Made by a program: the position numbers and the translations under genes. From Clostridia bacterium (lineage in GTDB: Bacteria; Bacillota; Clostridia; Christensenellales; Aristaeellaceae), in NCBI GenBank assembly GCA_024404275.1, contig JAKSQG010000014.1:1-21115 (forward strand): a stretch of 21,115 bases of DNA. The letters are read 5' to 3'. Every line of letters starts with the position of its first letter. Within the stretch, counting starts at the first letter, position 1. The notes under the pieces are model-generated. The model made no database searches and had not been told where the DNA came from. It saw only the letters and a list, made by a program, of their open reading frames with translations. Positions 1 to 21,115 of this stretch are shown piece by piece.

Positions 1-2
1 AT

Positions 3-509
3 TTGACCCTACTCGAAGATATTCTGCGCCATAACGCGCAGGACATCGCCGGATTGGCCCGGCTGCTGTACGTACTGGCAGGGTTACATCTCCAGCCGGA
101 AACCGCACATTATGCTCAGGATCTTTACTCACTCGGACGTATCCAAGAAAAACGCGGTCTCATTACCTCGGCCAGAAAATGCTACAAGGCTGCAGATTCC
201 GGTGCCGTCAGTGCTCTCAGCCGTGCGCGGCTTGCCCTTACTTATCAAAGGGAGGGAGAGTGGCAACAAGCTGCAAGCATTTGGCAGCTGATGATCCGTA
301 CTCATCAGGGTGGAGCGGAACCCTATATCGCTCTGGCCAAGCTGCAAGAGCATCGTTTTCATGATCCTTCGGCAGCTGCTGCGACCGTACGATCTGCGCT
401 GGTCTATATGACCGATCAGCCCTCCACCAGCAAAAACAAGCAGCTTTTTGACGATCTGACGCGGCGTTATCATCGTCTGCTGCACACCATCTCCCACCAA
501 ACCGTTTAA
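3..509 (+). CDS. 3' fragment of a larger gene cut by the window edge; possible RNase H-like (YprB-type) exonuclease C-terminus followed by TPR-like helical repeats
   Basis: The open frame runs from the window edge, and the TTG at position 3 is probably not a real start. ILRHNAQDIAGL resembles the last H-x4-D exonuclease motif. The rest is helical and repeat-like. Stop codon is TAA. Confidence 0.4.
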   Translation: MTLLEDILRHNAQDIAGLARLLYVLAGLHLQPETAHYAQDLYSLGRIQEKRGLITSARKCYKAADSGAVSALSRARLALTYQREGEWQQAASIWQLMIRTHQGGAEPYIALAKLQEHRFHDPSAAAATVRSALVYMTDQPSTSKNKQLFDDLTRRYHRLLHTISHQTV

Positions 510-535
510 CTATCGCTACAAGGAGGAACATTTCA

Positions 536-1240
536 ATGGCATTCGGAGATACTTTCAGGGTACGTGCTTCTGTCGCCAAGCAACGCAAAGGTGATATTGA
601 AGGTGCAAAAGCCGATTATCAGCAGTATTATGACCGCGGGCTTATTCTCTCCTTTTATCTGATTCCATGGTCCATTCTGCTTCTCCGCGAAGGCGGCCAG
701 GAGAACCTGCTCAAGGTGAAGGAGATCCTTGTCAAAGCCCAAAAGGCACCCGACCTGAATCCCAACACCCGCAGCGATCTGCTGACCTATTTTGCCGTAG
801 CACAGTGGCTGTTGGGTGAAAAGGACAAAGCCGTGGAGCTGATGGAGCGTGTGCATCAGAAATCCCCCATGAGCAACACCTATACAGCACTCGGCTATAT
901 GTATATTGACACTGTCACCCCCGAAAAGGCATTGGAATTCTGTCTGAATGCCCTTGAGTATGATGATGAGGACCCTGTGCTGCTCGATAACGTGGGACAG
1001 ACCTATTATCGTGCCCTGCATGATCCTGAAAAAGCCCTGCCGTACTTCAAAAAGGCCATTGAGATCAAAGATACGCAGGTGGACACGCTGTGGTTCCTTT
1101 CCCGTTACGATCTGGAAGCCGGCGATAAAGCCGCCGCCATCGAAAAGCTGGAACGCTCTTTGGAAGGCCGTTTTGCCCCCCTCAATTACCGCAACCGTGG
1201 TGATATTGAGGCCGAGCTCGCCCGCTTGATGGCCGAATAA
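536..1240 (+). CDS. tetratricopeptide-repeat (TPR) protein
   Basis: An AGGAGG ribosome-binding site at 521-526 lies 9 nt before the ATG. The 234-aa product has repeated A/Y/L TPR-like helices (ALEFCLNALEYD, YYRALHDPEKALPYFKKAIEI). Stop codon is TAA, followed by a terminator. Confidence 0.7.
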   Translation: MAFGDTFRVRASVAKQRKGDIEGAKADYQQYYDRGLILSFYLIPWSILLLREGGQENLLKVKEILVKAQKAPDLNPNTRSDLLTYFAVAQWLLGEKDKAVELMERVHQKSPMSNTYTALGYMYIDTVTPEKALEFCLNALEYDDEDPVLLDNVGQTYYRALHDPEKALPYFKKAIEIKDTQVDTLWFLSRYDLEAGDKAAAIEKLERSLEGRFAPLNYRNRGDIEAELARLMAE

Positions 1241-1249
1241 ATGCACAGC

Positions 1250-1277
1250 AAAAAAGTCCGCTTTCGCGGACTTTTTT
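1250..1277. terminator. bidirectional intrinsic terminator between convergent genes
   Basis: A-tract, GTCCGC stem (1256-1261), TTTC loop, GCGGAC stem (1266-1271), then TTTTTT. It sits between the TPR stop (1240) and the MATE stop (1279). Confidence 0.75.
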
Positions 1278-1278
1278 A

Positions 1279-2691: not shown

Positions 2692-2728
2692 AATGCCTTC
2701 TTCTATACTCTGATTTTCAAAACCGTAC

Positions 2729-2737
2729 TATTATACC
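2729..2737 (-). promoter_or_regulatory. candidate extended -10 promoter for the MATE gene
   Basis: The minus strand reads TGgTATAAT about 40 nt upstream of the MATE ATG. No good -35 element is present. Confidence 0.3.
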
Positions 2738-2872
2738 ATAGCTGTAAAGCAAGTTCCAGTCCTATGCAAACATATTTCAAACAAACCCGCAAATTACGTA
2801 TCCATTTCCAACAGTGACAATGATTGCAAAAACAAGGTGTTGAAAAAAAGAAAAAATAACTTAAATTTGTGC

Positions 2873-2901
2873 TTGACATTCCATCCCCTTTCTGCTATAA
2901 T
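2873..2901 (+). promoter_or_regulatory. consensus sigma-A/sigma-70 promoter driving the tRNA
   Basis: TTGACA (2873-2878), a 17-nt spacer, then TGcTATAAT (-10 at 2896-2901, extended TG at 2893-2894). An A-rich UP-like tract lies upstream at 2843-2870. Confidence 0.75.
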
Positions 2902-2952
2902 TCTTCTTGCTTCAGGGGAGTCAGAAAGATTCCTGAGGAAGCAAATGTGGAT

Positions 2953-3029
2953 CTGGGTGTAGCGCAGCTTGGTAGCGTGCTTGAATGGGGTTCAAGAGGT
3001 CGAGAGTTCAAATCTCTCCACCCAGACCA
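2953..3029 (+). tRNA. tRNA-Pro, anticodon GGG, with encoded CCA
   Basis: Manual cloverleaf: acceptor CTGGGTG/CACCCAG (C1-G72, typical of bacterial tRNA-Pro), D-arm GCGC/GCGT, anticodon stem CTTGA/TCAAG with loop A-T-GGG-G-T (G37), T-arm GAGAG-TTCAAAT-CTCTC, then discriminator A plus CCA. Length is 77 nt. Confidence 0.92.
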
Positions 3030-3030
3030 A

Positions 3031-3057
3031 AGAAGTGATGTAAATCACTTCTTTTTT
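3031..3057 (+). terminator. intrinsic terminator after the tRNA
   Basis: AGAAGTGAT stem, GTAA loop, ATCACTTCT stem (9-bp), followed by TTTTT. Confidence 0.75.
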
Positions 3058-3143: not shown

Positions 3144-4274
3144 TTATTCCCCGCAGCAAAGGTTCAGCTTGCTTTCAGCATCAAAGAAATGCATCACCTT
3201 GCCGCTGAAGGTAATGTTCAGCCTGGCGCCGGCAACAAGACCGGAACGCTGAGCGCTGCTCAGGTTCAGAGTAGGTACACGCACAATGAGGCGGGTGCCG
3301 TCCTCGGTATACACGTGCAGATGCAGCTCGCTGCCCATCATTTCGTTGACCTCGAGTGTGCAGGGAATGCTGCTTTCAGAGGCGCTGTCTGCCAGCACAA
3401 TGTGCTCCGGCCGCACACCAAGGATGATCTCGCGACTGCCTACATCTCCCTCGAGCAGCAGCTCTCGCTTCTCTCCATCCACCGGCAGTCTGGCCCCAAA
3501 GGGACTGACCGTATAGTTGTCACCGCTCCGGGTCAGTTTGGTGGGAATCATATTCATCTTGGGTGCGCCGATAAACTCCGCTACAAAGATATTGCGGGGC
3601 ATCTCAAACACTTCCGTCGGCGTACCGACCTGCTCAATATAACCATCCTGCATGATCACGATCCGGTCGCCCAATGTCATGGCTTCGGTCTGGTCATGTG
3701 TCACATAAATGAATGTGGTATTCAGCTTCTGACGCAGCAGAATGATTTCCGCTCGCATCTGATTGCGCAGTTTGGCATCCAGGTTGCTCAGCGGCTCATC
3801 CATCAGAAAGACCTTTGAATTACGCACCATGGCGCGGCCAATGGCCACGCGCTGGCGCTGACCACCCGACAAGGCGCGGGGTTTGCGTGTCAGATAATCA
3901 GTAATGCCCAGAATCTCGGCAGCATTGGTCACCTTTTCATAGATCTCGTCTTCCGGCATCTTTTTGAGCCGCAGAGAGAAGGCGATATTGTCATACACCG
4001 TCATATGGGGATAGAGCGCGTAGTTCTGGAAGACCATGGCGATATCGCGATCCTTGGGCTGCAGGTCGTTGACCACTTCACCGTCAATCTCCACCGTGCC
4101 CTCGCTGATATCCTCCAGACCGGCCACCATGCGCAGCGTGGTGGATTTGCCGCAGCCGGAGGGGCCGACAAACACCACAAACTCTTTATCCTTGATATCC
4201 AGGTTAAAGTCGTGTACGGCAGTCACTTTGTTATCATATATCTTTTTGACACCCGTCAGCTTTACACTTGCCAT
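3144..4274 (-). CDS. sugar ABC transporter ATP-binding protein (MalK/MsmX/UgpC type with a C-terminal regulatory domain)
   Basis: Walker A GPSGCGKST, Q-loop, signature LSGGQRQRVAIGRA, Walker B VFLMDEPLSNLD and H-loop VTHDQ are all present. The start was chosen at MASVKL (ATG 4274) because AGGAGA lies 6 nt upstream. The ORF-track start at 4316 would overlap the upstream permease gene. Confidence 0.93.
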   Translation of the reverse strand: MASVKLTGVKKIYDNKVTAVHDFNLDIKDKEFVVFVGPSGCGKSTTLRMVAGLEDISEGTVEIDGEVVNDLQPKDRDIAMVFQNYALYPHMTVYDNIAFSLRLKKMPEDEIYEKVTNAAEILGITDYLTRKPRALSGGQRQRVAIGRAMVRNSKVFLMDEPLSNLDAKLRNQMRAEIILLRQKLNTTFIYVTHDQTEAMTLGDRIVIMQDGYIEQVGTPTEVFEMPRNIFVAEFIGAPKMNMIPTKLTRSGDNYTVSPFGARLPVDGEKRELLLEGDVGSREIILGVRPEHIVLADSASESSIPCTLEVNEMMGSELHLHVYTEDGTRLIVRVPTLNLSSAQRSGLVAGARLNITFSGKVMHFFDAESKLNLCCGE

Positions 4275-4299
4275 ATTGATTCTCCTTTCTTGTTGCCCG

Positions 4300-5178
4300 T
4301 CATCCCTTGACGGCACCGCCGGTCACACCCTCGACATAATACTTCTGCAGGCACAGGAACAGCACAGTGACCGGGATGGCCACCAGCACGCCGCCGGCAC
4401 AGAAGAGCGTGTAATTGTTGGCGATCTGGTCTTTGTTCAGCCATCCGTACATACCGACCGCGACGTTTTTGCCGGCGCTGGCGCCCATGGACACATACTG
4501 TGCAAAGACAAAGTCGCCCCAGGGGCTCATAAAGGCCGTCAGAACGGTATAAATGACAATGGGCTTGGACAGCGGAAGAATGATCTTTTTGAGCACCTGA
4601 AAGCGCGTAGCGCCGTCCACGCGTGCCGCCTCGTCGAGGGATTTGGGAATGGTGTCAAAGAAACCCTTGGACACATAATAAAGCATACCGGAGGAGGCAA
4701 CGTACACCAGGATCAATCCGGGTACGGCATTGGCCTGCGTCATGCCCAGATCGGCCAGCACGCGGTAGAGGATGATCATTGTCAGCATGCCCGGGAACAT
4801 GCCCAGGATCAGCATCAAGCGCATCAGCAGCTTGCGCCCTTTGAAACGGAAACGGCTCAGCGCGTAGCTCATACACAGCACGATGAACGTCTGAAGAACA
4901 GAAGAAACCAGCGCAATGATAAAGGTGTTCAGATACCATTTGGGAAAATCCGTCTGGAAAAGCCTGAGATAGTTATCAATGCCCCAGCGTTTGGGGATCA
5001 CATAGCCGACCGGCATGGTATTTTCCACGCGGAAGGATTGAAGCAGAATGCAGATAAAGGGAATCAGCCAGACAACGGAGATGACCGCCAGCAGCACATA
5101 AATGGCGGTATTGCTGATTCTGCGGGAGGTTTTCAGGCCCATGTGCTTCTTGGGGGCCATCACAGTATTCTCACTCAT
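4300..5178 (-). CDS. carbohydrate ABC transporter permease (MalG/GanQ-like)
   Basis: The 292-aa protein has 6 predicted transmembrane helices and an EAA-type loop (LDEAARVDGATRFQVLKKIILPLSKP). Its ATG overlaps the stop of the upstream permease (TAATG). Confidence 0.9.
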   Translation of the reverse strand: MSENTVMAPKKHMGLKTSRRISNTAIYVLLAVISVVWLIPFICILLQSFRVENTMPVGYVIPKRWGIDNYLRLFQTDFPKWYLNTFIIALVSSVLQTFIVLCMSYALSRFRFKGRKLLMRLMLILGMFPGMLTMIILYRVLADLGMTQANAVPGLILVYVASSGMLYYVSKGFFDTIPKSLDEAARVDGATRFQVLKKIILPLSKPIVIYTVLTAFMSPWGDFVFAQYVSMGASAGKNVAVGMYGWLNKDQIANNYTLFCAGGVLVAIPVTVLFLCLQKYYVEGVTGGAVKG

Positions 5179-6719
5179 TACTGGAAATCCTCCTCATTTT
5201 TGATGGACGGCAGCAGGTTGTAGACCACCAGCGAAATGATAGCCACGACCAGGAATACCAGAATACCGACCACCGAAGCCAGATAATAGTTCGCCTCCGC
5301 GCCCTGTGTGATCTTAAACAGCCAGGTGATCAGCAGATCGGTGTAACCTACCGTGCCGGGAGCGGTAGACAGGTTGTTGGTCGGGGCGCCGCCCGTGAGC
5401 AGATAGATCACATTGAAGTTGTTCATGTTGCCCGTGAAACTGGTCAGCAGATAAGGACCCGTCACAAACAGCATATAGGGCAGCGTAATCTTGGAATACT
5501 GCTGCCAGCCGCTGGCGCCGTCGATGCGGGCAGACTCATACAGATCGGCCGGAATATTCATCAGAATGCCGGTGGTGATCAGCATCAGATACGGAATGCC
5601 GATCCAGATGTTGATGATGATTACGGTAATGCGCGCCCAGGTGGGATCCGTCCAGAACGGCAGCAGATGATCCATATCAATGATGCCCAGATCCATCAGC
5701 AGACCGTTGACGATGCCGTTGCTGGCAAACATTTTGGATACATAAAGCAGCGAAATAAACTGCGGAATGGCCACTGTCATCACCAGTACGGTACGCCAGC
5801 CTTTTTTGAAATGAATGCCTTTTTTATTGATGGCCATGGCCACCATCATGCCCAGGAAATAGTTGGTGAAGGTCGCAAAGAACGCCCAGATCAGCGTCCA
5901 CGCCAGCACCTCGCCAAAGGTCGCGGCATAAGAAGAGGAACCGTTGGTCCAGTTGAGCATGGTATTGAAATTATCCAGGCCCACCCAATGGAACAGGTTG
6001 TTGGTATAACCGTTGTTGGCACCGCAATAGTTGGTAAACGCGACCAGAATCATGAAGATGATGGGCAAAACGGTAAATACCAGAATGCCCGTCATCGGCA
6101 GCGCCAGCAGCGTTTTGTGGAACTGATCATCCACCAGCGAGCGCAGGTCTTCCTTGCCGCTCCTGAGCTTTTTTCCGCTCTTGAGGATGCGTTCCGCCGT
6201 CAAGTTCTGCTTCACATTCACACGCCAAGTGTAAATAAACGCGATGATGAAGAAGATGGTCAGTACGCTGTAAAGCAGGATGCGGAAGGAATTGTCATGA
6301 TAGATGGTCACTGTCGCCGTACCGCGAAGGCCGCTGGCCACTTTTTCGGTCGTCGGACCCTGTTTACCCAACGATGGCATCATACCCAGATAATAGCCTC
6401 CGAAGAGTACCATGTACCCGATAAAAACAACTTCGAACAGCAGGAACAAAACTCCTCGCAGGATCTGTCCGCGCGCAAAACAGCCAAAGCCCATCACCAG
6501 ATAAGAGACTTTGGTCTTCCAGTCCCCTGTTACAAAACCCATACAGATGTCACGAGCTTCGCCCGCAATTTTCAAAGCCGCCTGTTTGATGCCGGTAAGA
6601 AGCATCAGGAAAAAGGCGGCCGTTTTTCGGGGAATGGAACAGAGAAAGCTCAGCAGTTTCAAGCCGAACCGCTTTCCCTTTTTCATCCGCAGATATTCAA
6701 GGTCTGTGTATTTAACCAT
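5178..6719 (-). CDS. carbohydrate ABC transporter permease (MalF/GanP-like, with a long N-terminal extension)
   Basis: The 513-aa polytopic protein has an EAA loop (YESARIDGASGWQQYSKITLPYM). Confidence 0.9.
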   Translation of the reverse strand: MVKYTDLEYLRMKKGKRFGLKLLSFLCSIPRKTAAFFLMLLTGIKQAALKIAGEARDICMGFVTGDWKTKVSYLVMGFGCFARGQILRGVLFLLFEVVFIGYMVLFGGYYLGMMPSLGKQGPTTEKVASGLRGTATVTIYHDNSFRILLYSVLTIFFIIAFIYTWRVNVKQNLTAERILKSGKKLRSGKEDLRSLVDDQFHKTLLALPMTGILVFTVLPIIFMILVAFTNYCGANNGYTNNLFHWVGLDNFNTMLNWTNGSSSYAATFGEVLAWTLIWAFFATFTNYFLGMMVAMAINKKGIHFKKGWRTVLVMTVAIPQFISLLYVSKMFASNGIVNGLLMDLGIIDMDHLLPFWTDPTWARITVIIINIWIGIPYLMLITTGILMNIPADLYESARIDGASGWQQYSKITLPYMLFVTGPYLLTSFTGNMNNFNVIYLLTGGAPTNNLSTAPGTVGYTDLLITWLFKITQGAEANYYLASVVGILVFLVVAIISLVVYNLLPSIKNEEDFQ

Positions 6720-6743
6720 CGATCGCTCCCTCTTTCAAAACAG

Positions 6744-6769
6744 CCGGAGCCGGGCTCACCCGACTCCGG
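6744..6769 (-). terminator. intercistronic hairpin after the binding-protein gene; candidate partial terminator or mRNA stabiliser
   Basis: CCGGAGCCGGG, CTCA loop, CCCGACTCCGG (10 of 11 positions pair). On the minus strand it is followed by CTGTTTTG. It lies between the SBP stop (6808) and the permease start (6719). Confidence 0.45.
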
Positions 6770-6807
6770 CCGCTGCAGCCGTTCGCCGTATCGCGGCGGA
6801 AGAATTG

Positions 6808-8328
6808 TTATTCGGTCACCAGGCTGACTTCGCCGGTGGTTTCGTTGAACTGCACAAAGTAAGTGCCGTCGGCTTCCACCTTGAAGTTGTCGGCCGGGAA
6901 AGCGTTATCCCAGCTACGACCCTGACGCACCTTGAACTCGGTACCGGCGGGCATGGCATAAGCCTGAGTGGTCTTCCAGATGCCGTTTTCGCCGGTCATC
7001 GGGATATCATCGGCCCAGTTGGAGCGGGTTTCGCCGTTGTAATCGGTATAGAAGAAGCCATCCACCAGATTGCAGGTGCCGATCACGCCCCAGGAAGTCT
7101 TTTCTTCACTGGTCATGGTGAACAGCGCGGCGATCTTGGAGGTGTAGTTATCCAGCGCGGCCTGCAGACCGGCTTCGTCCTGAGCAGCCTTCACGTCATC
7201 GCCGATAACCTTGGCAATATCCCACCAGGCGCCGTGGATCTGACCCTGAGGAGTGGAGTAGGGAGACTGAGCCAGCAGAGCAGCCAGACCGGGGTTGGCC
7301 TGAACGGCTTCGGATTCCTGCGCCAGCAGATTGGAGGGGCCCCAGGCCATCTCGTTGAAGCGGTCCATCTGGCAATCATAACCGGTCAGGTACTCCGCCA
7401 GAATTTCCAGAGCAACGGCCTTGTCGCCATCCACCTGAGGCTTAATGCCCAGCAGCTTGCTGCCGGAGAAGCTGCCCAGATGATAGTTAACGCCGTCCAC
7501 AGTGAAGCAGGGCAGGTCAGCCACGCCCATGTTCTCGCCCAGAATGGATTCCACAGTGGCGTAGTCCCAGGTACCGGTCACAACCACAGCGCTGCCGGAC
7601 GCGAAGTCGGCACCGGCGGAGGAGTTGACCAGGCAGCTGGAGTCCACCAGCTTCTTCATACCCTTCACGGCAATCAGGCCGTTCGGGCTGTTGAAGGTAT
7701 CGTTAACGGAAATGAAATCGCCGTTTTCATCGGTCGTCCACTCAGACACGCAGCCGGTGGCGAAGAAGAAGGAGGCGTTGTACCAGGCGCTGCTGTTCAT
7801 TTCGAAGGAGAAGAACTTGCCGGCAGCCTCACAGTCGGCGATGATGGCTTCCAGAGAATCCACATCCGCCTCGGGGATCACGCTCTTGTCATAATACATG
7901 AAGTAGCCGTTATCAGCGGTCAGCGGATAGGCGTACATCACATCACCGGCCATACCGGCAGCCACAACGCCGGCGGCGTTGGCTTCGGTCACGATGGCGG
8001 CAGAGTCTTCGCTCAGCTCAGCCAGAGCACCGGCCTGCACCAGACGGGCAAACTGGTCATTGGCGAAGCAGTAAATATCCGCACCGGCTTCGACGTCCAC
8101 GATCATGTTGGTCGCGGCTTCACCTTCGGAAACAGGTTCCACGGCGGCGTTGAACTTGATGCCGTATTCGTTGGTGGCATTGAAGGTTTCGATCTGAGCC
8201 TTGGTCATGTCGACGATCTTTTCGGCGACCCAAACAGTGATGTTGTACTCGTAGGTGTTTTCAGCCAGGGCGGACACCATGGACAGAGCCATCACTACGG
8301 ACAGTACAAGAGCGAGCAGTTTCTTCAT
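6808..8328 (-). CDS. extracellular solute-binding protein (family 1, MalE/CycB/GanS-like) with an extra C-terminal beta-sandwich (CBM-like) domain
   Basis: The N-terminal signal peptide is MKKLLALVLSVVMALSMVSALA|EN. Residues of about 25-405 form a family-1 SBP-like body. Residues 411-506 are an additional domain with WGVIG...W...M...GIW...AGTEFKVRQGRSWDN...DGTYFV. Confidence 0.85.
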   Translation of the reverse strand: MKKLLALVLSVVMALSMVSALAENTYEYNITVWVAEKIVDMTKAQIETFNATNEYGIKFNAAVEPVSEGEAATNMIVDVEAGADIYCFANDQFARLVQAGALAELSEDSAAIVTEANAAGVVAAGMAGDVMYAYPLTADNGYFMYYDKSVIPEADVDSLEAIIADCEAAGKFFSFEMNSSAWYNASFFFATGCVSEWTTDENGDFISVNDTFNSPNGLIAVKGMKKLVDSSCLVNSSAGADFASGSAVVVTGTWDYATVESILGENMGVADLPCFTVDGVNYHLGSFSGSKLLGIKPQVDGDKAVALEILAEYLTGYDCQMDRFNEMAWGPSNLLAQESEAVQANPGLAALLAQSPYSTPQGQIHGAWWDIAKVIGDDVKAAQDEAGLQAALDNYTSKIAALFTMTSEEKTSWGVIGTCNLVDGFFYTDYNGETRSNWADDIPMTGENGIWKTTQAYAMPAGTEFKVRQGRSWDNAFPADNFKVEADGTYFVQFNETTGEVSLVTE

Positions 8329-8403
8329 TAGTACTTCATCCTTTCTTTTATTTCAAAGACTTTCGTCTATGAATCACGCCTTATATGGTTAACAATCGAC
8401 CAT

Positions 8404-8432
8404 ATTATAGTCTGTTCATTAGTCTTTGTCAA
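8404..8432 (-). promoter_or_regulatory. perfect-consensus promoter for the transporter genes, overlapping the 3' end of the GH42 gene
   Basis: The minus strand reads TTGACA (8432-8427), a 17-nt spacer, then TATAAT (8409-8404). Confidence 0.6.
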
Positions 8433-10473: not shown

Positions 10474-10489
10474 TTCTTTTTATCCTCCG

Positions 10490-12085: not shown

Positions 12086-12117
12086 ATTCAGAAACCTTCC
12101 TTCGTTTTTTCAACGAT

Positions 12118-12146
12118 ATCGTAAACTTTTCAAAACAGCTTGTCAA
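12118..12146 (-). promoter_or_regulatory. candidate promoter for the GH13/GH42 operon
   Basis: The minus strand reads TTGACA (12146-12141), a 17-nt spacer, then TACGAT (12123-12118), about 35 nt upstream of the GH13 ATG. Confidence 0.5.
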
Positions 12147-12168
12147 GAAAAATAAAAAATGTTAATAT
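12140..12168 (+). promoter_or_regulatory. candidate divergent promoter for the membrane-protein/GH53 unit
   Basis: TTGTCA (12140-12145), a 17-nt spacer, then TGtTAATAT (-10 at 12163-12168). Its -35 element shares base pairs with the minus-strand -35. Confidence 0.5.
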
Positions 12169-12201
12169 GAACTCAAATTCCGCCATAAAGGTGAAACCAT
12201 C

Positions 12202-12687
12202 ATGCATATATATTCCGAGCTTCAAATCCGTCAAATGAAAAAACGTGCCGCGCTGTACAAAACAGCGGCGGTTCTGATTGCCGTGTGTGCCTGGATCACT
12301 TGCGTAACGCTGTGCATCATCACGCGTACAGCCACAGACGCCATCCTGCACACGGCGGTTGTTCTGGTCTCGCTGTGTGCCGGCTGGGCCGTCATTCTGC
12401 TTTTGACCATGGGCTATCAACCCAACAAGGCAGGCGCCTCACACGCGGAAGGCATTCTGAAGGACATTGCCCGGGAAGAAACCGTCAGCGGTCTTCTGCT
12501 TCAGACAGACAGCCCCGTACGCATACCCGGTTCTGTGGAGATCTGCCGTGTCAGCATCCTTTGCGGCGAGGAAAAAAAGCGGCTGAGTATTCTGGAGAGC
12601 AAACGGGAGACGCTGCCCTCCCCCGGTTCCCCAGTCACCGTAAAAGTTGTCCGCAGCTTTATCAGCGAGGTGGAAGATGCGCGGTAA
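12202..12687 (+). CDS. hypothetical membrane protein (2 predicted transmembrane helices plus a soluble C-terminal domain of about 85 aa)
   Basis: AAGGTGA lies upstream of the ATG. Two hydrophobic helices are present (AAVLIAVCAWITCVTLCII and VVLVSLCAGWAVILLLTMG). I recognise no family. Confidence 0.55.
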   Translation: MHIYSELQIRQMKKRAALYKTAAVLIAVCAWITCVTLCIITRTATDAILHTAVVLVSLCAGWAVILLLTMGYQPNKAGASHAEGILKDIAREETVSGLLLQTDSPVRIPGSVEICRVSILCGEEKKRLSILESKRETLPSPGSPVTVKVVRSFISEVEDAR

Positions 12688-13222
12688 ATTGAGGATACTC
12701 AAACGGCAGCTGCCGCTGCTGATCATCTGGGCTGTACTGAGCAGCCTGATCTGGTCCTGGATCTTCATGCTGGTCACCGAGCCCGATGCCCGGCACAAGC
12801 TGGTCATTGCTGTGGACGCCACGGTATCCGACGTGACGGAGCTGGCGGTCTCGCTGGAATCGTTCATGGAAGGTGATATCCAAAGGATCAAGGTTTACCC
12901 TTTTACTTATGCAATGATGGACAGCAGCACGCTGGAAAAAGCCGATCTGCTGATTCTCTCCGCTGAAGGCATAAATACCTATCTTGACTGGCTGGCGCCG
13001 CTGCCCGCCGCAATCGCTTCCGATCAGGCTCTGTCGGTGATGGGGATCGCCTACGGGCTCCCTCTTAAAAACCCCCTTGTACTGCGGCATCTTTCCGGGG
13101 ACGCCGGCGCGTGGTATGTCTGTCTCGGACAAAAAAGCATCCATGCCGGCCGCGCTGACGGACAGGGTTCCGAGGCGTTGCCTTATCTGACTTTACTTTC
13201 CTCCGGTGCATCGGTGGACTAA
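12677..13222 (+). CDS. hypothetical single-pass membrane protein with an extracytoplasmic domain
   Basis: The start was chosen at MRGKLRIL (ATG 12677, GAGGTGG upstream), which overlaps the previous stop (ATGCGCGGTAA). One N-terminal transmembrane helix is present (LPLLIIWAVLSSLIWSWIFMLV). I recognise no family. Confidence 0.55.
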   Translation: MRGKLRILKRQLPLLIIWAVLSSLIWSWIFMLVTEPDARHKLVIAVDATVSDVTELAVSLESFMEGDIQRIKVYPFTYAMMDSSTLEKADLLILSAEGINTYLDWLAPLPAAIASDQALSVMGIAYGLPLKNPLVLRHLSGDAGAWYVCLGQKSIHAGRADGQGSEALPYLTLLSSGASVD

Positions 13223-13233
13223 AGGAGAAAAAG

Positions 13234-14139
13234 ATGAAAAGAATCGCCCTGCTCCTGATCCTGACGCTGCTTGCCGCGCTGAATTGCATTGCCTTTGCGG
13301 AAGAGAGCCCCGCAGCAGGCAGTACCCTTTATGTCAAAAAGGTGGAGAACCTTTCCGATGATTTTGTTTTCGGCATGGATGCCTCTTGCGTGATTGCTCT
13401 GGAAAACAGCGGCGTCCGATTCTATGATTTTAACGGCATCGAACAGGATGTTTTTAAAACATTGCACGAAAACGGTATCAATGCCATTCGCGTCCGGATC
13501 TGGAATGATCCCTATGACCCTGCCGGTCACGGCTATGGCGGCGGCAACTGCGATATCGCCAAAGCCATCGAGATCGGCCGCCGTGCCACCGAAAACGGCA
13601 TGTCGCTGATTGTCAGCTTCCATTACAGCGATTTCTGGGCCGATCCCTCCAAGCAGATCGTTCCCAAGGCTTGGAAGGGGCTCAAAATTGCCGATAAGAC
13701 TACTGCGGTTTATGAGTTTACCCGGGAATGCCTCCTGCAGCTGAAGGATGCGGGAGTGGATGTCTGCATGGTGGCGGTCGGCAATGAAACCAACCAACTG
13801 ATGTGCGGAGAGAAAACCTGGTTCAACATTCAGTACCTGATGCAAGCCGGCGCCCGGGCGACACGGGAAATCTTCCCCGAAGCGCTGGTGGCACTTCATT
13901 TTACTAACCCCGAGAAGGCCGGCAGCCTCATGACATACGCCAAAAAGATGGATTATTATCAGGTAGATTACGATGTGTTTTCCACCTCCTATTATCCTTA
14001 CTGGCATGGCACGCTGCAAAACCTTTCATCCGTGTTGAGCGAAGTAGCCGAAACTTATGGCAAAAAAGTGATGGTAATGGAAACCAGCTATGCCTACACC
14101 TCCGAAGACAGCGATTTTTACGGCAACACCATCTCATAG
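13234..14139 (+). CDS. GH53 endo-beta-1,4-galactanase (GanB/GalA-like), signal peptide plus most of the catalytic domain, ending at an in-frame TAG
   Basis: AAGGAGA ribosome-binding site and signal peptide ...CIAFA|EE. GH53 motifs present are GMDASCVIALENSG, NAIRVRIWNDP, FHYSDFWADPSKQ.VPKAW, VGNETN (acid/base) and METSYAYT (nucleophile). The frame stops at TAG 14137-14139. Confidence 0.9.
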   Translation: MKRIALLLILTLLAALNCIAFAEESPAAGSTLYVKKVENLSDDFVFGMDASCVIALENSGVRFYDFNGIEQDVFKTLHENGINAIRVRIWNDPYDPAGHGYGGGNCDIAKAIEIGRRATENGMSLIVSFHYSDFWADPSKQIVPKAWKGLKIADKTTAVYEFTRECLLQLKDAGVDVCMVAVGNETNQLMCGEKTWFNIQYLMQAGARATREIFPEALVALHFTNPEKAGSLMTYAKKMDYYQVDYDVFSTSYYPYWHGTLQNLSSVLSEVAETYGKKVMVMETSYAYTSEDSDFYGNTIS

Positions 14140-15183
14140 GGCGGCGCCGTCATCAAGGATTATCCTTTCACCGTTCAGGGACAGGCGAATTCCCTTCGGG
14201 AAATTACCAATACGCTGGTCAACCGGACGAGCAGCGCCATCGGCATGGTCTACTGGGAAGGCACATGGATTGGCGGCGGCGGCGGCAGCTGGGAAGAAAA
14301 CCATGCCCTGTGGGAAGAGTACGGCAGCGGCTGGGCCAGCAGCTACGCCCGTGCCTACGATCCGAATGACGCTGGAAAATACTACGGCGGCAACGCGGTG
14401 GATAATCAGGCGATGTTTGACCCGGAAGGGCACCCGCTGGAATCGCTGAAGGTTTTTTCCCTGATGAAAACCGGCAATGAGATATCTCCCGTGGCCGATG
14501 CTCCCGAAGACGTCCGCCTGATTGTCGATATCAACGGTGATATCACGCTGCCGGATACCGTTGATGCCATCATGACGGATAACTCCCGCCGCTCTATCCC
14601 CGTGGAGTGGGATTTTACCGCCGAACAGGATGCCATGATGCACGAAAACGGCGTTGCGGCTTATACGATCACCGGCACCGCCGGCGGCATGACCGCCACC
14701 TGTTATATCAACATGGTCGAATACAATTATCTGAACGATTACAGCTTTGAAGAAGGCGGCAGCTGCTGGGTGCTTACCGATCTGAACAAAGCCGATGAAT
14801 TGTATGTGGAAGAGAAAAAATCCGACAGTCTGACCGGCGTAAAGCATCTGCATTTCTGGAGCGCGGCAAAAAACAGCGTGGAATTCACCGCGGAGCAGAC
14901 CCCGGAAAACCTGCCTGCCGGGCGTTACAAATTCAGCATGTCCGCCATGGGAGGGGACTGCGGCGCCACAGAGGCATACATCTACGTCAAGGTGAACAAC
15001 GAAATAATCGCCCGCGCCAATCTTGTCTTCAGCAGCTACGGCAACTGGTATACCGCCGTCATTCCCGCCTTTGAGCACGCTGCGGAGGATACGGTCACGG
15101 TCGGTGTATATGTCAAAGCGCAGGGAACCGGCAACGGCGCCTGGGGTAAGCTGGACGACGCGCTGCTCAACAGCGTAAAATGA
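14140..15183 (+). CDS. continuation of the same GH53 galactanase in the same frame: end of the catalytic domain, an Ig-like domain and a CBM-like domain
   Basis: The sequence directly after the TAG reads GGAVIKDYPFTVQGQANSLREI...GMVYWEGTWI...ALWEEYGSGWASSYA..YDPNDAGKYYGGNAVDNQAMFD. This is conserved GH53 C-terminal core sequence. The first ATG (14245) lies inside that core, and no separate ribosome-binding site or signal peptide is present. Confidence 0.85.
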   Translation, partial: GGAVIKDYPFTVQGQANSLREITNTLVNRTSSAIGMVYWEGTWIGGGGGSWEENHALWEEYGSGWASSYARAYDPNDAGKYYGGNAVDNQAMFDPEGHPLESLKVFSLMKTGNEISPVADAPEDVRLIVDINGDITLPDTVDAIMTDNSRRSIPVEWDFTAEQDAMMHENGVAAYTITGTAGGMTATCYINMVEYNYLNDYSFEEGGSCWVLTDLNKADELYVEEKKSDSLTGVKHLHFWSAAKNSVEFTAEQTPENLPAGRYKFSMSAMGGDCGATEAYIYVKVNNEIIARANLVFSSYGNWYTAVIPAFEHAAEDTVTVGVYVKAQGTGNGAWGKLDDALLNSVK

Positions 15184-15239: not shown

Positions 15240-16652
15240 TTACACCTGTTCGACCTTGATGATGTTGGTATTGCCGATCTGACCATTGATCTGGCCGCCC
15301 GTCAGCACCACATTGTCGCCCTTCTGAAGACCAAGCTCCTTCTGGGCAATCTTCATATCCTGCCAGAACATAACATCCATATTGGGATATGCCTCGCACA
15401 GCACCGGCAGAACAGACCAGGAAAGGTTCAGCTTGCGCCATGCCTTGGGATCGGTAGTCGCCCCCAGAATGCAGACAGGTCCGCGGAAACGGGACACCAT
15501 GCGGGCAGTACGGCCGCTGATCGAGTTGACCACAATAGCTTTGGCTTTGACATCCACTGCCATGGAACACACCGCGTGGGAGATGGCATCCAGATTGCTG
15601 TGGATGGTAAAATCAGCCTTTTTGAAGAATTCTTCGTAGTCGATATGATTCTCGGTAAATTCGGCAATCTCCGCCATCGCTTTGACGGCCTGCACCGGGA
15701 ACTTACCCGCAGCAGTCTCACCGGAAAGCATCACGGCAGAAGAACCGTCATACACGGCATTAGCCACGTCACTGACTTCTGCACGGGTGGGACGGGGATT
15801 ATTGATCATGCTTTCCAGCATTTCCGTCGCCGTAATGACGCGCTTGCCCAGCATACGGCACTTTTCGATCAGATACTTCTGTACCGGCGGCACCTCCATG
15901 AAGGGGATCTCCACACCCAGGTCACCGCGGGCCACCATGATACCGTCAGCCACCTCGCAGATTTCGGACACGTGATCCACACCGCTGCGGTTTTCAATTT
16001 TGGCAATGATATCCACATCCTTGCCGCCGTTTGCATCCAGCAGCTCGCGGAGGCTCTGCACATCGCTCTTGCAGGAAACAAAGGAAGCCGCGACAAAATC
16101 GACATCATTGGCAATGCCAAACAGGATATCTTCCTTGTCCTGTTCGGACAGATATTCATGCTTCATCACCTTGCCGGGGAAGCACATGCTCTTGCGGTTG
16201 CTCAACACACCGCCGGCCACAACACGGCAGTTGATATCATTATCCGTAATGCTTTCTACCTTCAGGGAGACCAAGCCGTTATTGACCAGCACGGTATCGC
16301 CTGCCTGCAGTTCCTTGGTCAGATTCTTATAGTTCACGGAAACGCGTTCGGCATTTCCTTCAATTTCATCCGTGGTCAGCACAAAGGGCGCGCCATCCTG
16401 CAGCGTCACCTTACCCTCTGCAAACGTTTTGATGCGGTATTCGGGGCCTTTGGTATCCAGCATGATAGCAATCGGCAGACCCAATTCTTCACGCACCTGC
16501 TTGATGGCATTGATCTTCTTCAGATGTTCTTCATGGGAACCGTGAGAAAAGTTCAGGCGGGCCACGTTCATGCCGGCCAGGCAAAGCTCTTTCAGTGTTT
16601 CAATGTTTTCACTGGAAGGGCCGATAGTGCAAATGATCTTGGTCTTACGCAT
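15240..16652 (-). CDS. pyk: pyruvate kinase
   Basis: MRKTKIICTIGPSS, NVARLNFSHG, MLDTKGPEYR, MVARGDLGVEIP and a C-terminal allosteric domain are present. The start was set at the second ATG (16652) because GGAGG lies 9 nt upstream. The first ATG (16661) directly abuts the ribosome-binding site. Confidence 0.95.
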   Translation of the reverse strand: MRKTKIICTIGPSSENIETLKELCLAGMNVARLNFSHGSHEEHLKKINAIKQVREELGLPIAIMLDTKGPEYRIKTFAEGKVTLQDGAPFVLTTDEIEGNAERVSVNYKNLTKELQAGDTVLVNNGLVSLKVESITDNDINCRVVAGGVLSNRKSMCFPGKVMKHEYLSEQDKEDILFGIANDVDFVAASFVSCKSDVQSLRELLDANGGKDVDIIAKIENRSGVDHVSEICEVADGIMVARGDLGVEIPFMEVPPVQKYLIEKCRMLGKRVITATEMLESMINNPRPTRAEVSDVANAVYDGSSAVMLSGETAAGKFPVQAVKAMAEIAEFTENHIDYEEFFKKADFTIHSNLDAISHAVCSMAVDVKAKAIVVNSISGRTARMVSRFRGPVCILGATTDPKAWRKLNLSWSVLPVLCEAYPNMDVMFWQDMKIAQKELGLQKGDNVVLTGGQINGQIGNTNIIKVEQV

Positions 16653-16681
16653 GGTTTGCATCCTCCTTTGTTCCTGTTTCC

Positions 16682-18635: not shown

Positions 18636-18642
18636 CCGAAAT

Positions 18643-18671
18643 GCCCGTGCCTCAACAAGGCCGGGCTTTTT
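18643..18671 (+). terminator. intrinsic terminator after the SGNH hydrolase gene
   Basis: GCCCGtGCC stem, TCAACAA loop, GGCCGGGC stem (one bulge), then TTTTT. Confidence 0.7.
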
Positions 18672-18736
18672 GATTGTCAATTTGCTTGCCCGTCAGTTAA
18701 AGTGGATTTGCCTCAAATTTGTGTATCTTTCCGCAC

Positions 18737-18765
18737 TTGACAACCGCATTATCCATCTATATAAT
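18737..18765 (+). promoter_or_regulatory. perfect-consensus promoter for the FAD oxidoreductase gene
   Basis: TTGACA (18737-18742), a 17-nt spacer, then TATAAT (18760-18765). Confidence 0.6.
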
Positions 18766-18787
18766 AATATATAATAACATATAATAC
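18758..18787 (+). repeat. three tandem 10-bp units, each containing TATAAT
   Basis: The units read TATATAATAA / TATATAATAA / CATATAATAC. This was read directly from the sequence. Confidence 0.85.
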
Positions 18788-18808
18788 ATTGCAGAAAGGA
18801 CGGCTTTT

Positions 18809-20113: not shown

Positions 20114-20123
20114 CCAAACAAAA

Positions 20124-20147
20124 ACCGGCTGCCTCACGGCAGCCGGT
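20124..20147. terminator. bidirectional terminator between the FAD oxidoreductase and barstar genes
   Basis: ACCGGCTGCC stem, TCAC loop, GGCAGCCGGT stem (10-bp). A T-rich run follows on the minus strand (TTTTGTTTGG) and a weaker one on the plus strand (GCTTTC). Confidence 0.7.
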
Positions 20148-20151
20148 GCTT

Positions 20152-20418
20152 TCAGTGAATCGTCACGCGGATAAATTCATTTTCTTCCGCCGCATCCTGC
20201 AGCATACGGATCAATGAGTTTCCCCAGCGGTCAAACTTTTCCCGCAGGCTATCGGCATTCTCGATTGTCAGTTCAATATCCCGGGCTTCCGTCAGCGCAT
20301 CATACAGTGCGTCAAGATTGGAAGCATACTCCTCGCTGAGCTCCAACGCGTCATGCAGGGCCTTTCTTGCTTCGGTTCTGCTCTCCCACAGAGCGGCATC
20401 CAGGCAAATTGTCCGCAT
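20152..20418 (-). CDS. barstar-family ribonuclease inhibitor
   Basis: ALELSEEYASNLDALYDALTE matches the barstar core ([20 protein letters not shown]), including the two Asp residues that contact barnase. The product is 88 aa. GGAGGTG lies upstream, and the ATG starts 1 nt after the RNase stop. Confidence 0.88.
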   Translation of the reverse strand: MRTICLDAALWESRTEARKALHDALELSEEYASNLDALYDALTEARDIELTIENADSLREKFDRWGNSLIRMLQDAAEENEFIRVTIH

Positions 20419-20419
20419 C

Positions 20420-20767
20420 TTATTTCACCTCCGTAAAGGTCTCATAGTGATCATTGGTATAATAGATCTTGCCATTTTTGCCGATGATCAGGCGTTCTGT
20501 TCCGCGGAAACCACCATGATAATTCACATCGCATTCAATATATGTGGTATTTTCAGGCAGCTGACCTTCATAGTTGCCAAATCGGTCTCCACCGATGGAT
20601 TTGCCCGGCGCTACCTCCCACAGGTTGCCCTTGGAGCTGACCCAGCCGAGGTTCTGCGCTTTGGACTTGGTAATGTAGTTGGACGGCAGTTTGCCATATA
20701 AACGATAGTATGCCGCTACCTCTTCCGGCGTATCATAGGTACCGTTTTTATCAAGGACCGGTGCTTC
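20420..20767 (-). CDS. barnase-like guanyl-specific ribonuclease domain with no start codon of its own, in frame with the upstream ORF across a TAG
   Basis: My manual translation gives EAPVLDKNGTYDTPEEVAAYYRLYGKLPSNYITKSKAQNLGWVSSKGNLWEVAPGKSIGGDRFGNYEGQLPENTTYIECDVNYHGGFRGTERLIIGKNGKIYYTNDHYETFTEVK*. It aligns along its length with barnase (YHKLPDNYITKSEAQALGWVASKGNLADVAPGKSIGGDIFSNREGKLPG...EADINY..GFRNSDRILYSSD.LIYKTTDHYQTFTKIR). Confidence 0.85.
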   Translation of the reverse strand, partial: EAPVLDKNGTYDTPEEVAAYYRLYGKLPSNYITKSKAQNLGWVSSKGNLWEVAPGKSIGGDRFGNYEGQLPENTTYIECDVNYHGGFRGTERLIIGKNGKIYYTNDHYETFTEVK

Positions 20768-21115
20768 CTACGGTACTTCGTAACGGCTCCAAAGGCTGAC
20801 ACCGTCATCGGTATAGTATGCCAGCTTGCCCTCTTCCTGTTGAATCAGGGCATCCTGTTCAGAAAGGATAACGATGCCATCGGCATCCATTTCCCACATT
20901 CCCTTTTCCGTAACCACCTGTTTGGCGGTGGTATCGGTCAGGGTGTAGGTGCCGTCTTCTTCAAAGCTGAGCAGCTTTTCCGCTTCCTTGAAGGTGATTA
21001 CACTGCTGCCGTCCGTGTAGCTTTCCTCCTGCCAGAGACCCACAGGAAACACCGTTTCCCCCAGTGCAGGCAGCACAAGCAGCAGACACAGCAGCAGACA
21101 CAATAATTTCTTCAT
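20768..21115 (-). CDS. signal peptide plus a small N-terminal beta-rich domain (possibly lipocalin-like) of the secreted RNase; the ORF ends at an in-frame TAG
   Basis: The ATG falls on the last three bases of the window. The signal peptide is MKKLLCLLLCLLLVLPALG|ET. The remaining roughly 95 aa have a G.W...DG.Y pattern. The stop TAG at 20768-20770 is in frame with the barnase domain. Confidence 0.7.
   Translation of the reverse strand: MKKLLCLLLCLLLVLPALGETVFPVGLWQEESYTDGSSVITFKEAEKLLSFEEDGTYTLTDTTAKQVVTEKGMWEMDADGIVILSEQDALIQQEEGKLAYYTDDGVSLWSRYEVP
21079..21102. repeat. perfect 12-bp tandem duplication inside the signal-peptide coding region
   Basis: GCAGCAGACACA occurs twice in tandem on the plus strand. 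It encodes the repeated CLLL-CLLL in the hydrophobic core of the signal peptide. Confidence 0.9.

What the first reader, a model, noticed from the sequence alone, without database searches (positions are those of the whole stretch)
1..21115. Window-level pattern: two internal TAGs, and no gene end uses TAG
I read 18 natural gene ends by eye, and they use TAA 13 times, TGA 5 times and TAG never. The only two in-frame TAGs fall inside two unrelated genes whose downstream sequence is conserved and intact. Both are followed by G (TAG-GGC and TAG-GAA). Both lie in linker or loop regions of signal-peptide-bearing proteins. Together this raises the possibility that TAG is not an efficient stop in this organism. 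The candidate mechanisms are an amber suppressor tRNA, conditional expansion of the genetic code, or TAG reassignment. TAG reassignment is known in some phages and in pyrrolysine users, but is not established as a general feature of a bacterial chromosome. Eighteen stops are too few to settle this. Two independent C-to-T (CAG to TAG) or G-to-A (TGG to TAG) nonsense mutations remain a simpler alternative.
Basis: inference. Interest (0 to 1): 0.8.

Follow-up and report, generated by a model that had tools for sequence, protein, structure and literature searches.

The report
Clostridia clade reads TAG as glutamate
This uncultured gut Clostridia bacterium and its closest relatives appear to translate the stop codon TAG as glutamate, which would be a bacterial genetic code that I could not find described anywhere.

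Summary
The window has 18 natural gene ends (13 TAA, 5 TGA, 0 TAG) and two in-frame TAGs, one in a GH53 galactanase and one in a secreted barnase-fusion gene. The window alone proves little, because relatives end only 5.7% of genes in TAG (P of 0/18 = 0.35).

Comparative data decide it. The window (a Clostridia MAG, GCA_024500545.1) falls in a monophyletic pyruvate-kinase clade. Contigs of that clade, plus an L172 strain group reached through ClpC similarity, carry 13 distinct in-frame TAGs in about 105 kb. They have no in-frame TAA or TGA and no TAG at about 80 natural ends. In 1.88 Mb of outgroup sequence there are 3 candidates.

TAG aligns with invariant Glu in IlvD, FtsK and an ABC ATPase. 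Between near-identical strains TAG corresponds to Glu at all four comparable sites; at the two where DNA is available the codon is GAG, reciprocally within one ABC gene that is under strong purifying selection (pN/pS about 0.08).

Pseudogenes, a G-to-T mutator, Gln and Pyl all fit poorly. The best reading is clade-wide UAG = Glu. The tRNA(CUA) and the state of RF1 could not be examined.

The parts
13234..15183 (+). GH53 endo-beta-1,4-galactanase gene (signal peptide, GH53 domain, Big_4 domain, C-terminal region). It is a single 649-codon reading frame containing one TAG and ending in TGA.
   Evidence: The Pfam GH53 match runs continuously across the TAG. 120 homologs of about 645 aa are uninterrupted and up to 72% identical over the full length.
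14137..14139 (+). In-frame TAG no. 1 (...GNTIS-TAG-GGAVIK...), in a loop after the beta-7 'METSY' strand.
   Evidence: The homolog column is D 78, G 37, E 5. The TAG is kept in a 99.95%-identical Logan contig and in three strain variants whose products are all 301 aa.
20420..21115 (-). Secreted two-domain ribonuclease gene: signal peptide, N-terminal domain, acidic linker and barnase domain. It has 231 codons including one TAG and ends in TAA.
   Evidence: PF00545 matches only downstream of the TAG, and no ATG/GTG/TTG start there gives an ORF of 60 aa or more. PDB barnase matches at 1e-34. Single-chain homologs span the TAG position, for example P0422 covering query residues 3-229.
20768..20770 (-). 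In-frame TAG no. 2 (...RYEVP-TAG-EAPVLD...), in the interdomain linker.
   Evidence: Six strain variants of the N-fragment are all 115 aa. One is the public annotation of this contig, MCQ2453305.1.
20152..20418 (-). Barstar immunity gene immediately downstream of the barnase gene. Keeping it argues that the RNase is made and is active.
   Evidence: PF01337 Barstar, E = 4.6e-10.
1..21115 (.). Window-level stop usage: 18 natural gene ends, 13 TAA, 5 TGA, 0 TAG.
   Evidence: The background TAG share in relatives is 5.67%.

Best explanation
The window comes from an uncultured Clostridia lineage from animal-gut and rumen-type metagenomes in which UAG is a rare sense codon read as glutamate, and in which only UAA and UGA end genes. 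Shown here: in-frame TAGs are restricted to one clade, occur in intact genes under selection, sit at Glu positions, and correspond to Glu in strain comparisons (to the codon GAG where DNA is available). Inferred, not shown: (1) ancestral TAG stops were already rare, about 6% in sister lineages, and were then lost; (2) a tRNA with anticodon CUA arose, most simply from a GAG-reading tRNA-Glu(CUC) by a single change at anticodon position 36, and is still charged by GluRS; (3) RF1 was lost or weakened; (4) GAG-to-TAG changes then became effectively synonymous and now drift at low frequency, about 0.5 per 1,000 codons or 0.7% of Glu codons. Under this reading the GH53 galactanase and the barnase-fusion RNase of the window are full-length functional proteins with Glu at the TAG positions.
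For: (1) Recurrence and clade restriction. There are 13 distinct in-frame TAG sites in about 105 kb: window 2, L002 3, L083 1, L085 1, L172 4, L174 1, L175 1. Outgroups give 3 candidates in 1.88 Mb and 1,410 genes, and two of those are one adjacent gene pair (Fisher p = 5e-14). In the NJ tree of pyruvate kinases, the TAG-interrupted contigs that carry PK (window, L002, L083, L085) form one monophyletic clade. Its sister group includes L164, which has a genuine TAG gene end. (2) Only TAG is involved. There are no genuine in-frame TAA or TGA in the clade. P(13 of 13 are TAG) is 4.5e-4 under random single-step nonsense and 3e-4 under a G-to-T mutator, using the clade's own codon usage. (3) No TAG occurs at about 80 natural gene ends in the clade (P = 0.008 against the 5.67% background), and all 11 readthrough ORFs checked end in TAA or TGA. 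(4) Amino-acid identity. TAG aligns with invariant Glu in IlvD, FtsK and the ABC ATPase position after the H-loop. Other columns are D/G/E (GH53), S/E/E/D/D (TrmH), R/E/S/S/H (PanE) and D (CtsR of L173). (5) Strain pairs. CtsR has TAG in L172 and Glu in P0362. ABC codon 193 is TAG in L172, L175 and L176 and GAG in L174. ABC codon 81 is GAG in L172, L175 and L176 and TAG in L174. MMPL has TAG in L175 and Glu in P0534 and P0535 (Ala in P0541). (6) Purifying selection. pN/pS is 0.07-0.09 in the TAG-bearing ABC gene at pS 0.10-0.13, and codon 193 stays TAG across that divergence. (7) Persistence. The window's two TAGs and L002's TAGs are kept in 3, 6, 4 and 8 strain variants from several assemblies.
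Against: No tRNA with a CUA anticodon and no release-factor gene lie on any contig I could read, so the mechanism itself is unobserved. The window's own two TAG sites are in variable positions and cannot identify the amino acid by themselves. The strongest strain-level evidence comes from the L172 group, which is linked to the clade by ClpC similarity (78% to L083) and not by PK. Only 13 sites were found, all in metagenome assemblies. The PK tree is a simple NJ tree without support values. L086, a clade member, and L173 contain no TAG at all, which is neutral. GAG-to-TAG is also the commonest one-step route to an amber nonsense codon, so the Glu signal alone would not exclude nonsense. The exclusion rests on the selection, specificity and persistence arguments.
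Confidence: 0.8

Rival explanations
1. Ambiguous code. UAG is efficiently suppressed by a Glu-inserting tRNA(CUA) while RF1 is still present, so UAG is partly stop and partly Glu. This would be an intermediate stage and not a completed reassignment.
For: Nothing here shows that RF1 is absent. TAG is very rare, 0.48 per 1,000 codons, as expected early in a transition. Archaeal Pyl lineages keep their release factor during such a transition (10.1101/2024.09.30.615893).
Against: TAGs sit at invariant catalytic-core Glu positions of FtsK, IlvD and an ABC ATPase, where substantial termination would be costly. No natural gene end uses TAG. TAG persists across about 10% synonymous divergence.
Confidence: 0.12
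2. UAG is a sense codon but encodes something other than Glu: Gln as in recoded phages, pyrrolysine, or a mixture inserted by near-cognate tRNAs after RF1 loss.
For: The amino acid is inferred only from alignments. Several TAG columns are variable. Gln is the usual outcome of UAG reassignment elsewhere.
Against: Three TAG sites are invariant Glu. At all four strain-level sites the counterpart residue is Glu, and at the two with DNA the codon is GAG, a transversion away, never CAG. No methylamine methyltransferase genes or other Pyl context were seen. A bulky Pyl at invariant Glu positions is implausible.
Confidence: 0.05
3. The TAGs are ordinary nonsense mutations (pseudogenes or segregating null alleles), possibly favoured by a G-to-T mutational bias. 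The lack of TAG gene ends is just the low TAG usage of this taxon.
For: 0/18 TAG ends in the window is unremarkable (P = 0.35). GAG-to-TAG is a one-step change and GAG is the commonest precursor codon. MAGs do contain pseudogenes.
Against: 13 of 13 interruptions are TAG, with none TAA or TGA and no frameshifts. They are confined to one clade. The genes affected include FtsK, IlvD and CtsR. There are reciprocal TAG/GAG differences in one gene with pN/pS about 0.08, including downstream of the TAG. TAGs are retained across multiple diverged strains and samples.
Confidence: 0.02
4. Assembly or sequencing artefact that creates TAG in consensus sequences.
For: All data are short-read metagenome assemblies.
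Against: The same TAGs appear in independent assemblies made by different pipelines and from different samples: NCBI MAG, Logan, ENA MEGAHIT/SPAdes assemblies and JGI co-assemblies. The changes are codon-specific and clade-specific.
Confidence: 0.01

Closest known systems
Bacterial UGA reassignments: table 4 (UGA=Trp; Mycoplasmatales and others, recently Eggerthellaceae, PMC13462651) and table 25 (UGA=Gly; Gracilibacteria/Absconditabacteria)
   Same: A stop codon is captured as a sense codon for a standard amino acid, in a monophyletic bacterial lineage, after that stop had become rare. The expected mechanism, a new cognate tRNA plus loss of the matching release factor, is analogous.
   Different: The codon here is UAG, not UGA. 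The release factor at stake is RF1, not RF2. The amino acid is Glu. The genomes have moderate to high GC (52-65%), not AT-rich or reduced genomes. Reviews and screens up to 2026 list only UGA changes for bacterial stop codons (PMC8629427; 10.64898/2026.05.24.727570).
Amber-recoded bacteriophages (TAG=Gln, 'code 15'-like; crAss-like and Lak phages; 10.1101/2021.08.26.457843)
   Same: In-frame TAG in otherwise normal genes, decoded through a suppressor tRNA(CUA).
   Different: Those are phage genomes that recode late genes while their hosts use the standard code. Here the TAGs are in chromosomal housekeeping genes (FtsK, IlvD, CtsR, pyruvate-kinase neighbourhood) and align with Glu, not Gln.
Archaeal Genetic Code 34 (all TAG = pyrrolysine; 10.1101/2024.09.30.615893)
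   Same: Genome-wide sense reading of TAG in a prokaryote. It is hard to detect because coding density under table 11 barely changes. The classification of TAG genes into 'internal' and 'extension' types applies here too.
   Different: It depends on the pylTSBCD machinery and inserts the 22nd amino acid, and its distribution is sporadic. Here the residue is a standard Glu and the distribution looks monophyletic.
Eukaryotic UAR=Glu codes (peritrich ciliates, table 30; Blastocrithidia nonstop, PMC12153298; the UAA/UAG split code in a ciliate, PMC10553269)
   Same: UAG is read as glutamate through a tRNA-Glu with a mutated anticodon.
   Different: These are eukaryotic nuclear codes with eRF1 changes, and UAA is usually reassigned as well. 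Here UAA is the main terminator, ending 13 of 18 genes in the window.
Engineered RF1-free E. coli (C321.deltaA and RF1 knock-outs; PMC4434889, PMC11903333)
   Same: They show that a bacterium can live with UAG freed from termination and assigned to an amino acid once natural TAG stops are removed.
   Different: They are synthetic. This would be the natural counterpart.

Membership tests
Genome-wide stop-codon reassignment (UAG as sense codon) | In-frame occurrences of the codon in conserved genes, with homology continuing downstream | tested here: met
   13 sites. Pfam or PDB homology is continuous across the TAG in GH53, barnase, IlvD, PanE, FtsK, TrmH, CtsR, the ABC ATPase, T2SSF and MMPL.
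Genome-wide stop-codon reassignment (UAG as sense codon) | The codon is no longer used at genuine gene ends | tested here: met
   0 of about 80 natural ends in clade contigs against 5.67% in outgroups, P = 0.008. For the window alone (0/18, P = 0.35) the test is inconclusive.
Genome-wide stop-codon reassignment (UAG as sense codon) | A consistent amino acid at aligned positions (Codetta-type inference) | tested here: met
   Invariant Glu at 3 sites and acidic-rich columns elsewhere. TAG corresponds to Glu in all 4 strain comparisons, and to the codon GAG in the two with DNA. No formal Codetta run was possible.
Genome-wide stop-codon reassignment (UAG as sense codon) | Lineage-restricted (monophyletic) distribution | tested here: met
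   The PK NJ tree puts the PK-bearing TAG-interrupted contigs in one clade, and the sister group uses TAG as a stop. The tree has no support values, and L172 is linked only through ClpC.
Genome-wide stop-codon reassignment (UAG as sense codon) | Genes carrying the codon remain under purifying selection | tested here: met
   pN/pS is 0.07-0.09 for the ABC gene with two alternative TAG sites.
Genome-wide stop-codon reassignment (UAG as sense codon) | A cognate tRNA with anticodon CUA | not testable with these tools
   None on any contig held.
Genome-wide stop-codon reassignment (UAG as sense codon) | Loss or alteration of release factor 1 | not testable with these tools
   No RF gene (GGQ motif) on any contig held.
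Pyrrolysine decoding (pylTSBCD) | In bacteria, in-frame TAG essentially confined to methylamine methyltransferase genes; a Pyl gene cluster present | tested here: not met
   The TAGs are in unrelated housekeeping and secreted-protein genes and align with Glu. Presence of pyl genes is not testable.
Phage amber recoding (TAG=Gln) | Phage genome context; TAG aligned with Gln | tested here: not met
   The context is chromosomal: pyruvate kinase, tRNA-Pro, ABC sugar transporter, FtsK, ClpC. The aligned and strain-level residue is Glu.
Pseudogenes / nonsense alleles | A mixture of disruption types (TAA, TGA, frameshifts), relaxed constraint and no phylogenetic persistence | tested here: not met
   Only TAG is involved. 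Selection is strong. The TAGs persist in several strains and samples.

The most novel reading that the evidence does not exclude
A fourth bacterial genetic code, and the first natural bacterial reassignment of UAG: UAG = Glu across a family-level, uncultured Clostridia clade of animal guts. It would presumably involve a tRNA-Glu(CUA) and loss of RF1, leaving UAA and UGA, both read by RF2, as the only terminators. Public annotations of these genomes would then systematically split or truncate roughly one gene in eight to ten.
Probability: 0.72. Interest if true: 0.93.

Novelty: new variant of a known kind. Interest (0 to 1): 0.9.

Why it matters
Stop-codon reassignment in bacteria has so far meant UGA (tables 4 and 25). 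Large screens (Codetta, 250,000 genomes) and current GTDB tooling list no bacterial UAG reassignment. A natural UAG=Glu lineage would have several consequences:

- It would add a new entry to the genetic-code tables.
- It would give a natural test of codon-capture versus ambiguous-intermediate models for the RF1-dependent stop. The transition appears recent, with TAG at only about 0.7% of Glu codons and still interchanging with GAG within species.
- It could provide a natural RF1-independent or RF1-attenuated bacterial translation system and a natural Glu-accepting amber suppressor tRNA, both of interest for genetic-code engineering.
- It would explain and correct mis-annotation. In the public record of this contig the barnase gene is a 115-aa 'hypothetical protein' and the galactanase is split in two.
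- It bears on phage-host biology, since amber-recoded phages are common in the same gut habitats.

Tried and rejected
- **E. coli identity:** megablast of the whole window against E. coli genomes found no match.
- **More of the source genome:** The contig is only 21,252 bp, so the window is almost all of it. The genome is not among the GTDB representatives.
- **Synteny for reading orthologous TAG sites:** relatives share only PK with the window.
- **Direct tests for tRNA(CUA) and RF1:** ARAGORN and a GGQ-motif scan on all 176 loci and the window found none.
- **PK identity as a proxy for the trait:** rejected. L082 (P0122, 42% GC) scored high only because of an internal duplication and uses TAG stops normally. 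The P0141 species (77% PK) is standard code.
- **Automatic 'split gene' flags:** TGA and TAA flags in clade contigs, and the TAG flag in L133/L073 (PurN followed by a PurO-like gene), are neighbouring genes that share a frame.
- **Barnase linker alignment:** too variable to show the residue at the window's second TAG.
not general across clade TAGs.
- **One look-up failed** for technical reasons.
Full report
**1. What is in the window**

The 21.1-kb window has about 53% GC and shows no megablast similarity to E. coli. Pfam and a codon-usage gene caller give one consistent model:
- two TPR proteins and a MatE exporter;
- tRNA-Pro(GGG), at 2953-3029 by ARAGORN;
- a galactan-utilisation block on the minus strand: MalK-type ATPase, two permeases, a solute-binding protein, GH42 beta-galactosidase and a GH13 enzyme;
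- two small hypothetical genes;
- a GH53 endo-galactanase (13234-15183, +) and pyruvate kinase (15240-16661, -);
- a rhomboid-like protein, a GDSL hydrolase and an FAD oxidoreductase;
- barstar (20152-20418, -) and a secreted barnase-fusion protein (20420-21115, -).

**2. The two internal TAGs**

TAG 14137-14139 lies inside the GH53 catalytic domain. Pfam profile positions 2-260 precede it and 266-340 follow it. 120 homologs of about 645 aa, up to 72% identical, are uninterrupted and carry D (78), G (37) or E (5) at that column.

TAG 20768-20770 (minus strand) lies between a signal-peptide N-domain and a barnase domain. The barnase domain matches PDB barnase at 1e-34. It has no start codon of its own and is followed by barstar. 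Homologs with the same two-domain architecture in one chain span the TAG position.

**3. The window alone does not settle it**

I called genes with the same method in 120 related loci (1.88 Mb, 1,410 genes). Only 5.67% of those genes end in TAG, so 0 of 18 has P = 0.35. The G after both TAGs is not a general feature.

**4. Source and relatives**

The GH53 N-fragment and the TPR protein are on record in NCBI assembly GCA_024500545.1, and the matching PK record (P0121) is labelled 'MAG: Clostridia bacterium' on a contig of 21,252 bp. The same GH53 fragment is in a Logan assembly of SRR17543910 that is 99.95% identical and keeps the TAG.

Pyruvate kinase was used to sample relatives from GTDB representatives, JGI metagenomes and the protein database. 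An NJ tree of these PKs shows one monophyletic clade: window/P0121, L002/P0123, L083/P0124, L085/P0127, L086/P0126 and P0125. Its sister group is large and includes L164, which has a genuine TAG gene end and no interrupted genes. GC in the clade ranges from 52 to 65%, so the clade is not shallow.

**5. In-frame TAGs recur in this clade**

- L002 (15 kb): an IlvD-type dehydratase, a PanE reductase and a 1,400-aa Cys-rich protein.
- L083 (16.7 kb): FtsK.
- L085 (10 kb): a SpoU/TrmH methyltransferase.
- L172 (22.5 kb of a 131.7-kb contig, found through ClpC at 78% identity to L083): CtsR, an ABC ATPase, a T2SSF protein and a large surface protein.
- L175: an MMPL transporter.
- L174: a second site in the ABC ATPase.

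With the window's two sites this makes 13 distinct sites in about 105 kb. Outgroups give 3 candidates in 1.88 Mb, two of which are one adjacent PurN/PurO-like gene pair (Fisher p = 5e-14).

In the clade there is no genuine in-frame TAA or TGA; the flagged cases are neighbouring genes that share a frame. No TAG occurs at about 80 natural ends (P = 0.008). All 11 readthrough ORFs checked end in TAA or TGA.

**6. Which amino acid**

| Gene (locus) | Residues at the TAG column in homologs |
|---|---|
| IlvD (L002) | invariant Glu of the 'IADS[VI]E' motif |
| FtsK (L083) | invariant Glu of 'V.EM..RY' in FtsK and an ESX ATPase |
| ABC ATPase (L172) | invariant Glu after the H-loop in ten displayed NBD alignments |
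| GH53 (window) | D / G / E |
| TrmH (L085) | S / E / E / D / D |
| PanE (L002) | R / E / S / S / H |
| CtsR (L172) | D in L173 |

Near-identical strains found in the 90%-identity clusters give the most direct evidence:
- CtsR: '...VPVP#AVKDAL...' in L172 against '...VPVPEAVKDAL...' in P0362.
- MMPL: '...SAAMP#EMDSVQ...' in L175 against '...SAAMPEEMASVQ...' in P0534 and P0535, and Ala in P0541.
- ABC ATPase, at DNA level: codon 193 is TAG in L172, L175 and L176 and GAG in L174. Codon 81 is GAG in L172, L175 and L176 and TAG in L174.

So at four of four strain-level sites the counterpart residue is Glu, and at the two sites with DNA the codon is GAG. It is never Gln, Lys, Tyr, Trp, Ser or Leu.

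**7. The genes are functional**

Between these strains (pS 0.10-0.13) the ABC gene has pN/pS of 0.07-0.09. Its operon partners have 0 and 0.02. Codon 193 has stayed TAG across that divergence.

The window's TAGs are kept in three GH53 variants and six barnase N-fragment variants. L002's PanE and IlvD TAGs are kept in four and eight variants, from several runs and assemblers.

**8. Rivals**

- Random nonsense, or a G-to-T mutator, would give TAA and TGA about as often as TAG. P(13 of 13 TAG) is 3-5e-4 with the clade's codon usage. It would also relax selection, which is not seen.
- Artefact is excluded because the same TAGs appear in independent assemblies.
- Gln would predict TAG/CAG exchange and Gln columns.
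- Pyl would predict methyltransferase contexts and would not fit invariant Glu positions.
- An ambiguous code with RF1 retained cannot be excluded.

**9. Mechanism (inferred)**

TAG stops were already rare in the wider group, about 6% of ends. That fits a codon-capture-like path.

GAG is the major Glu codon here, at 40.8 per 1,000 codons, and a tRNA-Glu(CUC) exists in a related locus, L153. A single change at anticodon position 36, from C to A, would give a UAG reader.

From general knowledge, not tested here: many Firmicutes lack GlnRS and use a non-discriminating GluRS that tolerates variation at position 36. That would favour Glu charging of such a tRNA.

RF1 would then be dispensable, because RF2 reads UAA and UGA. 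None of these components lay on the contigs available.

**10. Prior knowledge**

- The Codetta screen states that all known bacterial stop reassignments involve UGA (PMC8629427).
- The 2026 gTranslate preprint cites only the archaeal UAG=Pyl code as a genome-wide UAG change in prokaryotes.
- The Code 34 preprint counts three codes in Bacteria.
- Targeted searches found UAG/UAR=Glu only in eukaryotes.

Within the searchable library I found no description of this code. A paper outside the library cannot be excluded.

**11. Verdict**

The two window genes are most likely intact, with Glu at the TAG positions. The remaining gaps are the tRNA, RF1, genome-wide counts and protein-level proof.

Noticed in passing
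window 3144-15183: A compact galactan-utilisation locus: GH53 endo-galactanase, GH42 beta-galactosidase, a GH13 enzyme, a solute-binding protein with a pullulanase-X25-like C-terminal extension, an unusually long 513-aa permease plus a second permease, and a MalK-type ATPase encoded next to the permeases.
   Followed up: partly
window 20152-21115 (-): Barnase-barstar pair in which the RNase carries a signal peptide and an extra N-terminal domain (weak DUF5004 match) joined by an acidic linker. Many homologs show variable N-terminal domains fused to barnase. This suggests a family of secreted or polymorphic RNase toxins.
   Followed up: partly
window 20771-21115 (-) and 13234-14139 (+); public record of the contig: Public records treat TAG as a stop. 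The barnase N-fragment is annotated by NCBI as MCQ2453305.1, 'hypothetical protein MJ136_01815', 115 aa. The 301-aa GH53 N-fragment is on record as a product of GCA_024500545.1, and in the Logan copy of the locus (L001) the gene is called as 301-aa and 312-aa halves. Clade genomes are probably mis-annotated in this way throughout.
   Followed up: partly
L003-L163 (outgroup loci): The whole wider group of rumen and gut Clostridia MAGs (labelled Eubacteriales, Oscillospiraceae, Saccharofermentans or Aristaeellaceae) ends only about 5.7% of genes in TAG. Such low usage would ease loss of TAG as a terminator.
   Followed up: partly
L090 841-3723 (+): An outgroup contig (PK 68% identical, 47% GC) has a single in-frame TAG in an LtaS/sulfatase-like gene ('FFGDH#AML') and no other TAG gene end. 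It could be an ordinary pseudogene or a hint that TAG readthrough extends beyond the clade.
   Followed up: no
L173 (whole locus, 16.6 kb, 62% GC): 11 of 12 genes end in TGA, one in TAA, and there is no TAG at all. Its ClpC is 74% identical to L083's. Whether it belongs to the TAG=Glu clade is unknown.
   Followed up: no
L082 9503-11248: The pyruvate kinase of this standard-code organism is 581 aa because about 110 residues of the barrel domain are tandemly duplicated almost exactly. This is probably an assembly artefact.
   Followed up: no
L083 1-265 and upstream (contig k141_46366): The FtsK fragment upstream of the TAG is recorded as only 229 aa, much shorter than a normal FtsK N-terminal part. 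The gene may contain a further in-frame TAG upstream of the stretch I could read.
   Followed up: no
window 2953-3029 and L002 8105-8181: A tRNA-Pro(GGG) gene lies in the pyruvate-kinase neighbourhood in both the window and its closest relative. Apart from PK itself, it is the only shared feature between the two contigs.
   Followed up: no
window 12647-12687: The two small hypothetical membrane-protein genes (12202-12687 and 12647-13222) overlap by 41 nt if the TTG start is used. L001's gene calls place the second start later. Neither has a Pfam match.
   Followed up: no
L175 4192-4733 and L176 726-1267: A small ParE-toxin pair and a tRNA-Ser(CGA) lie just upstream of the TAG-bearing ABC operon in two strains but not in L172. 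This marks a strain-specific insertion point.
   Followed up: no
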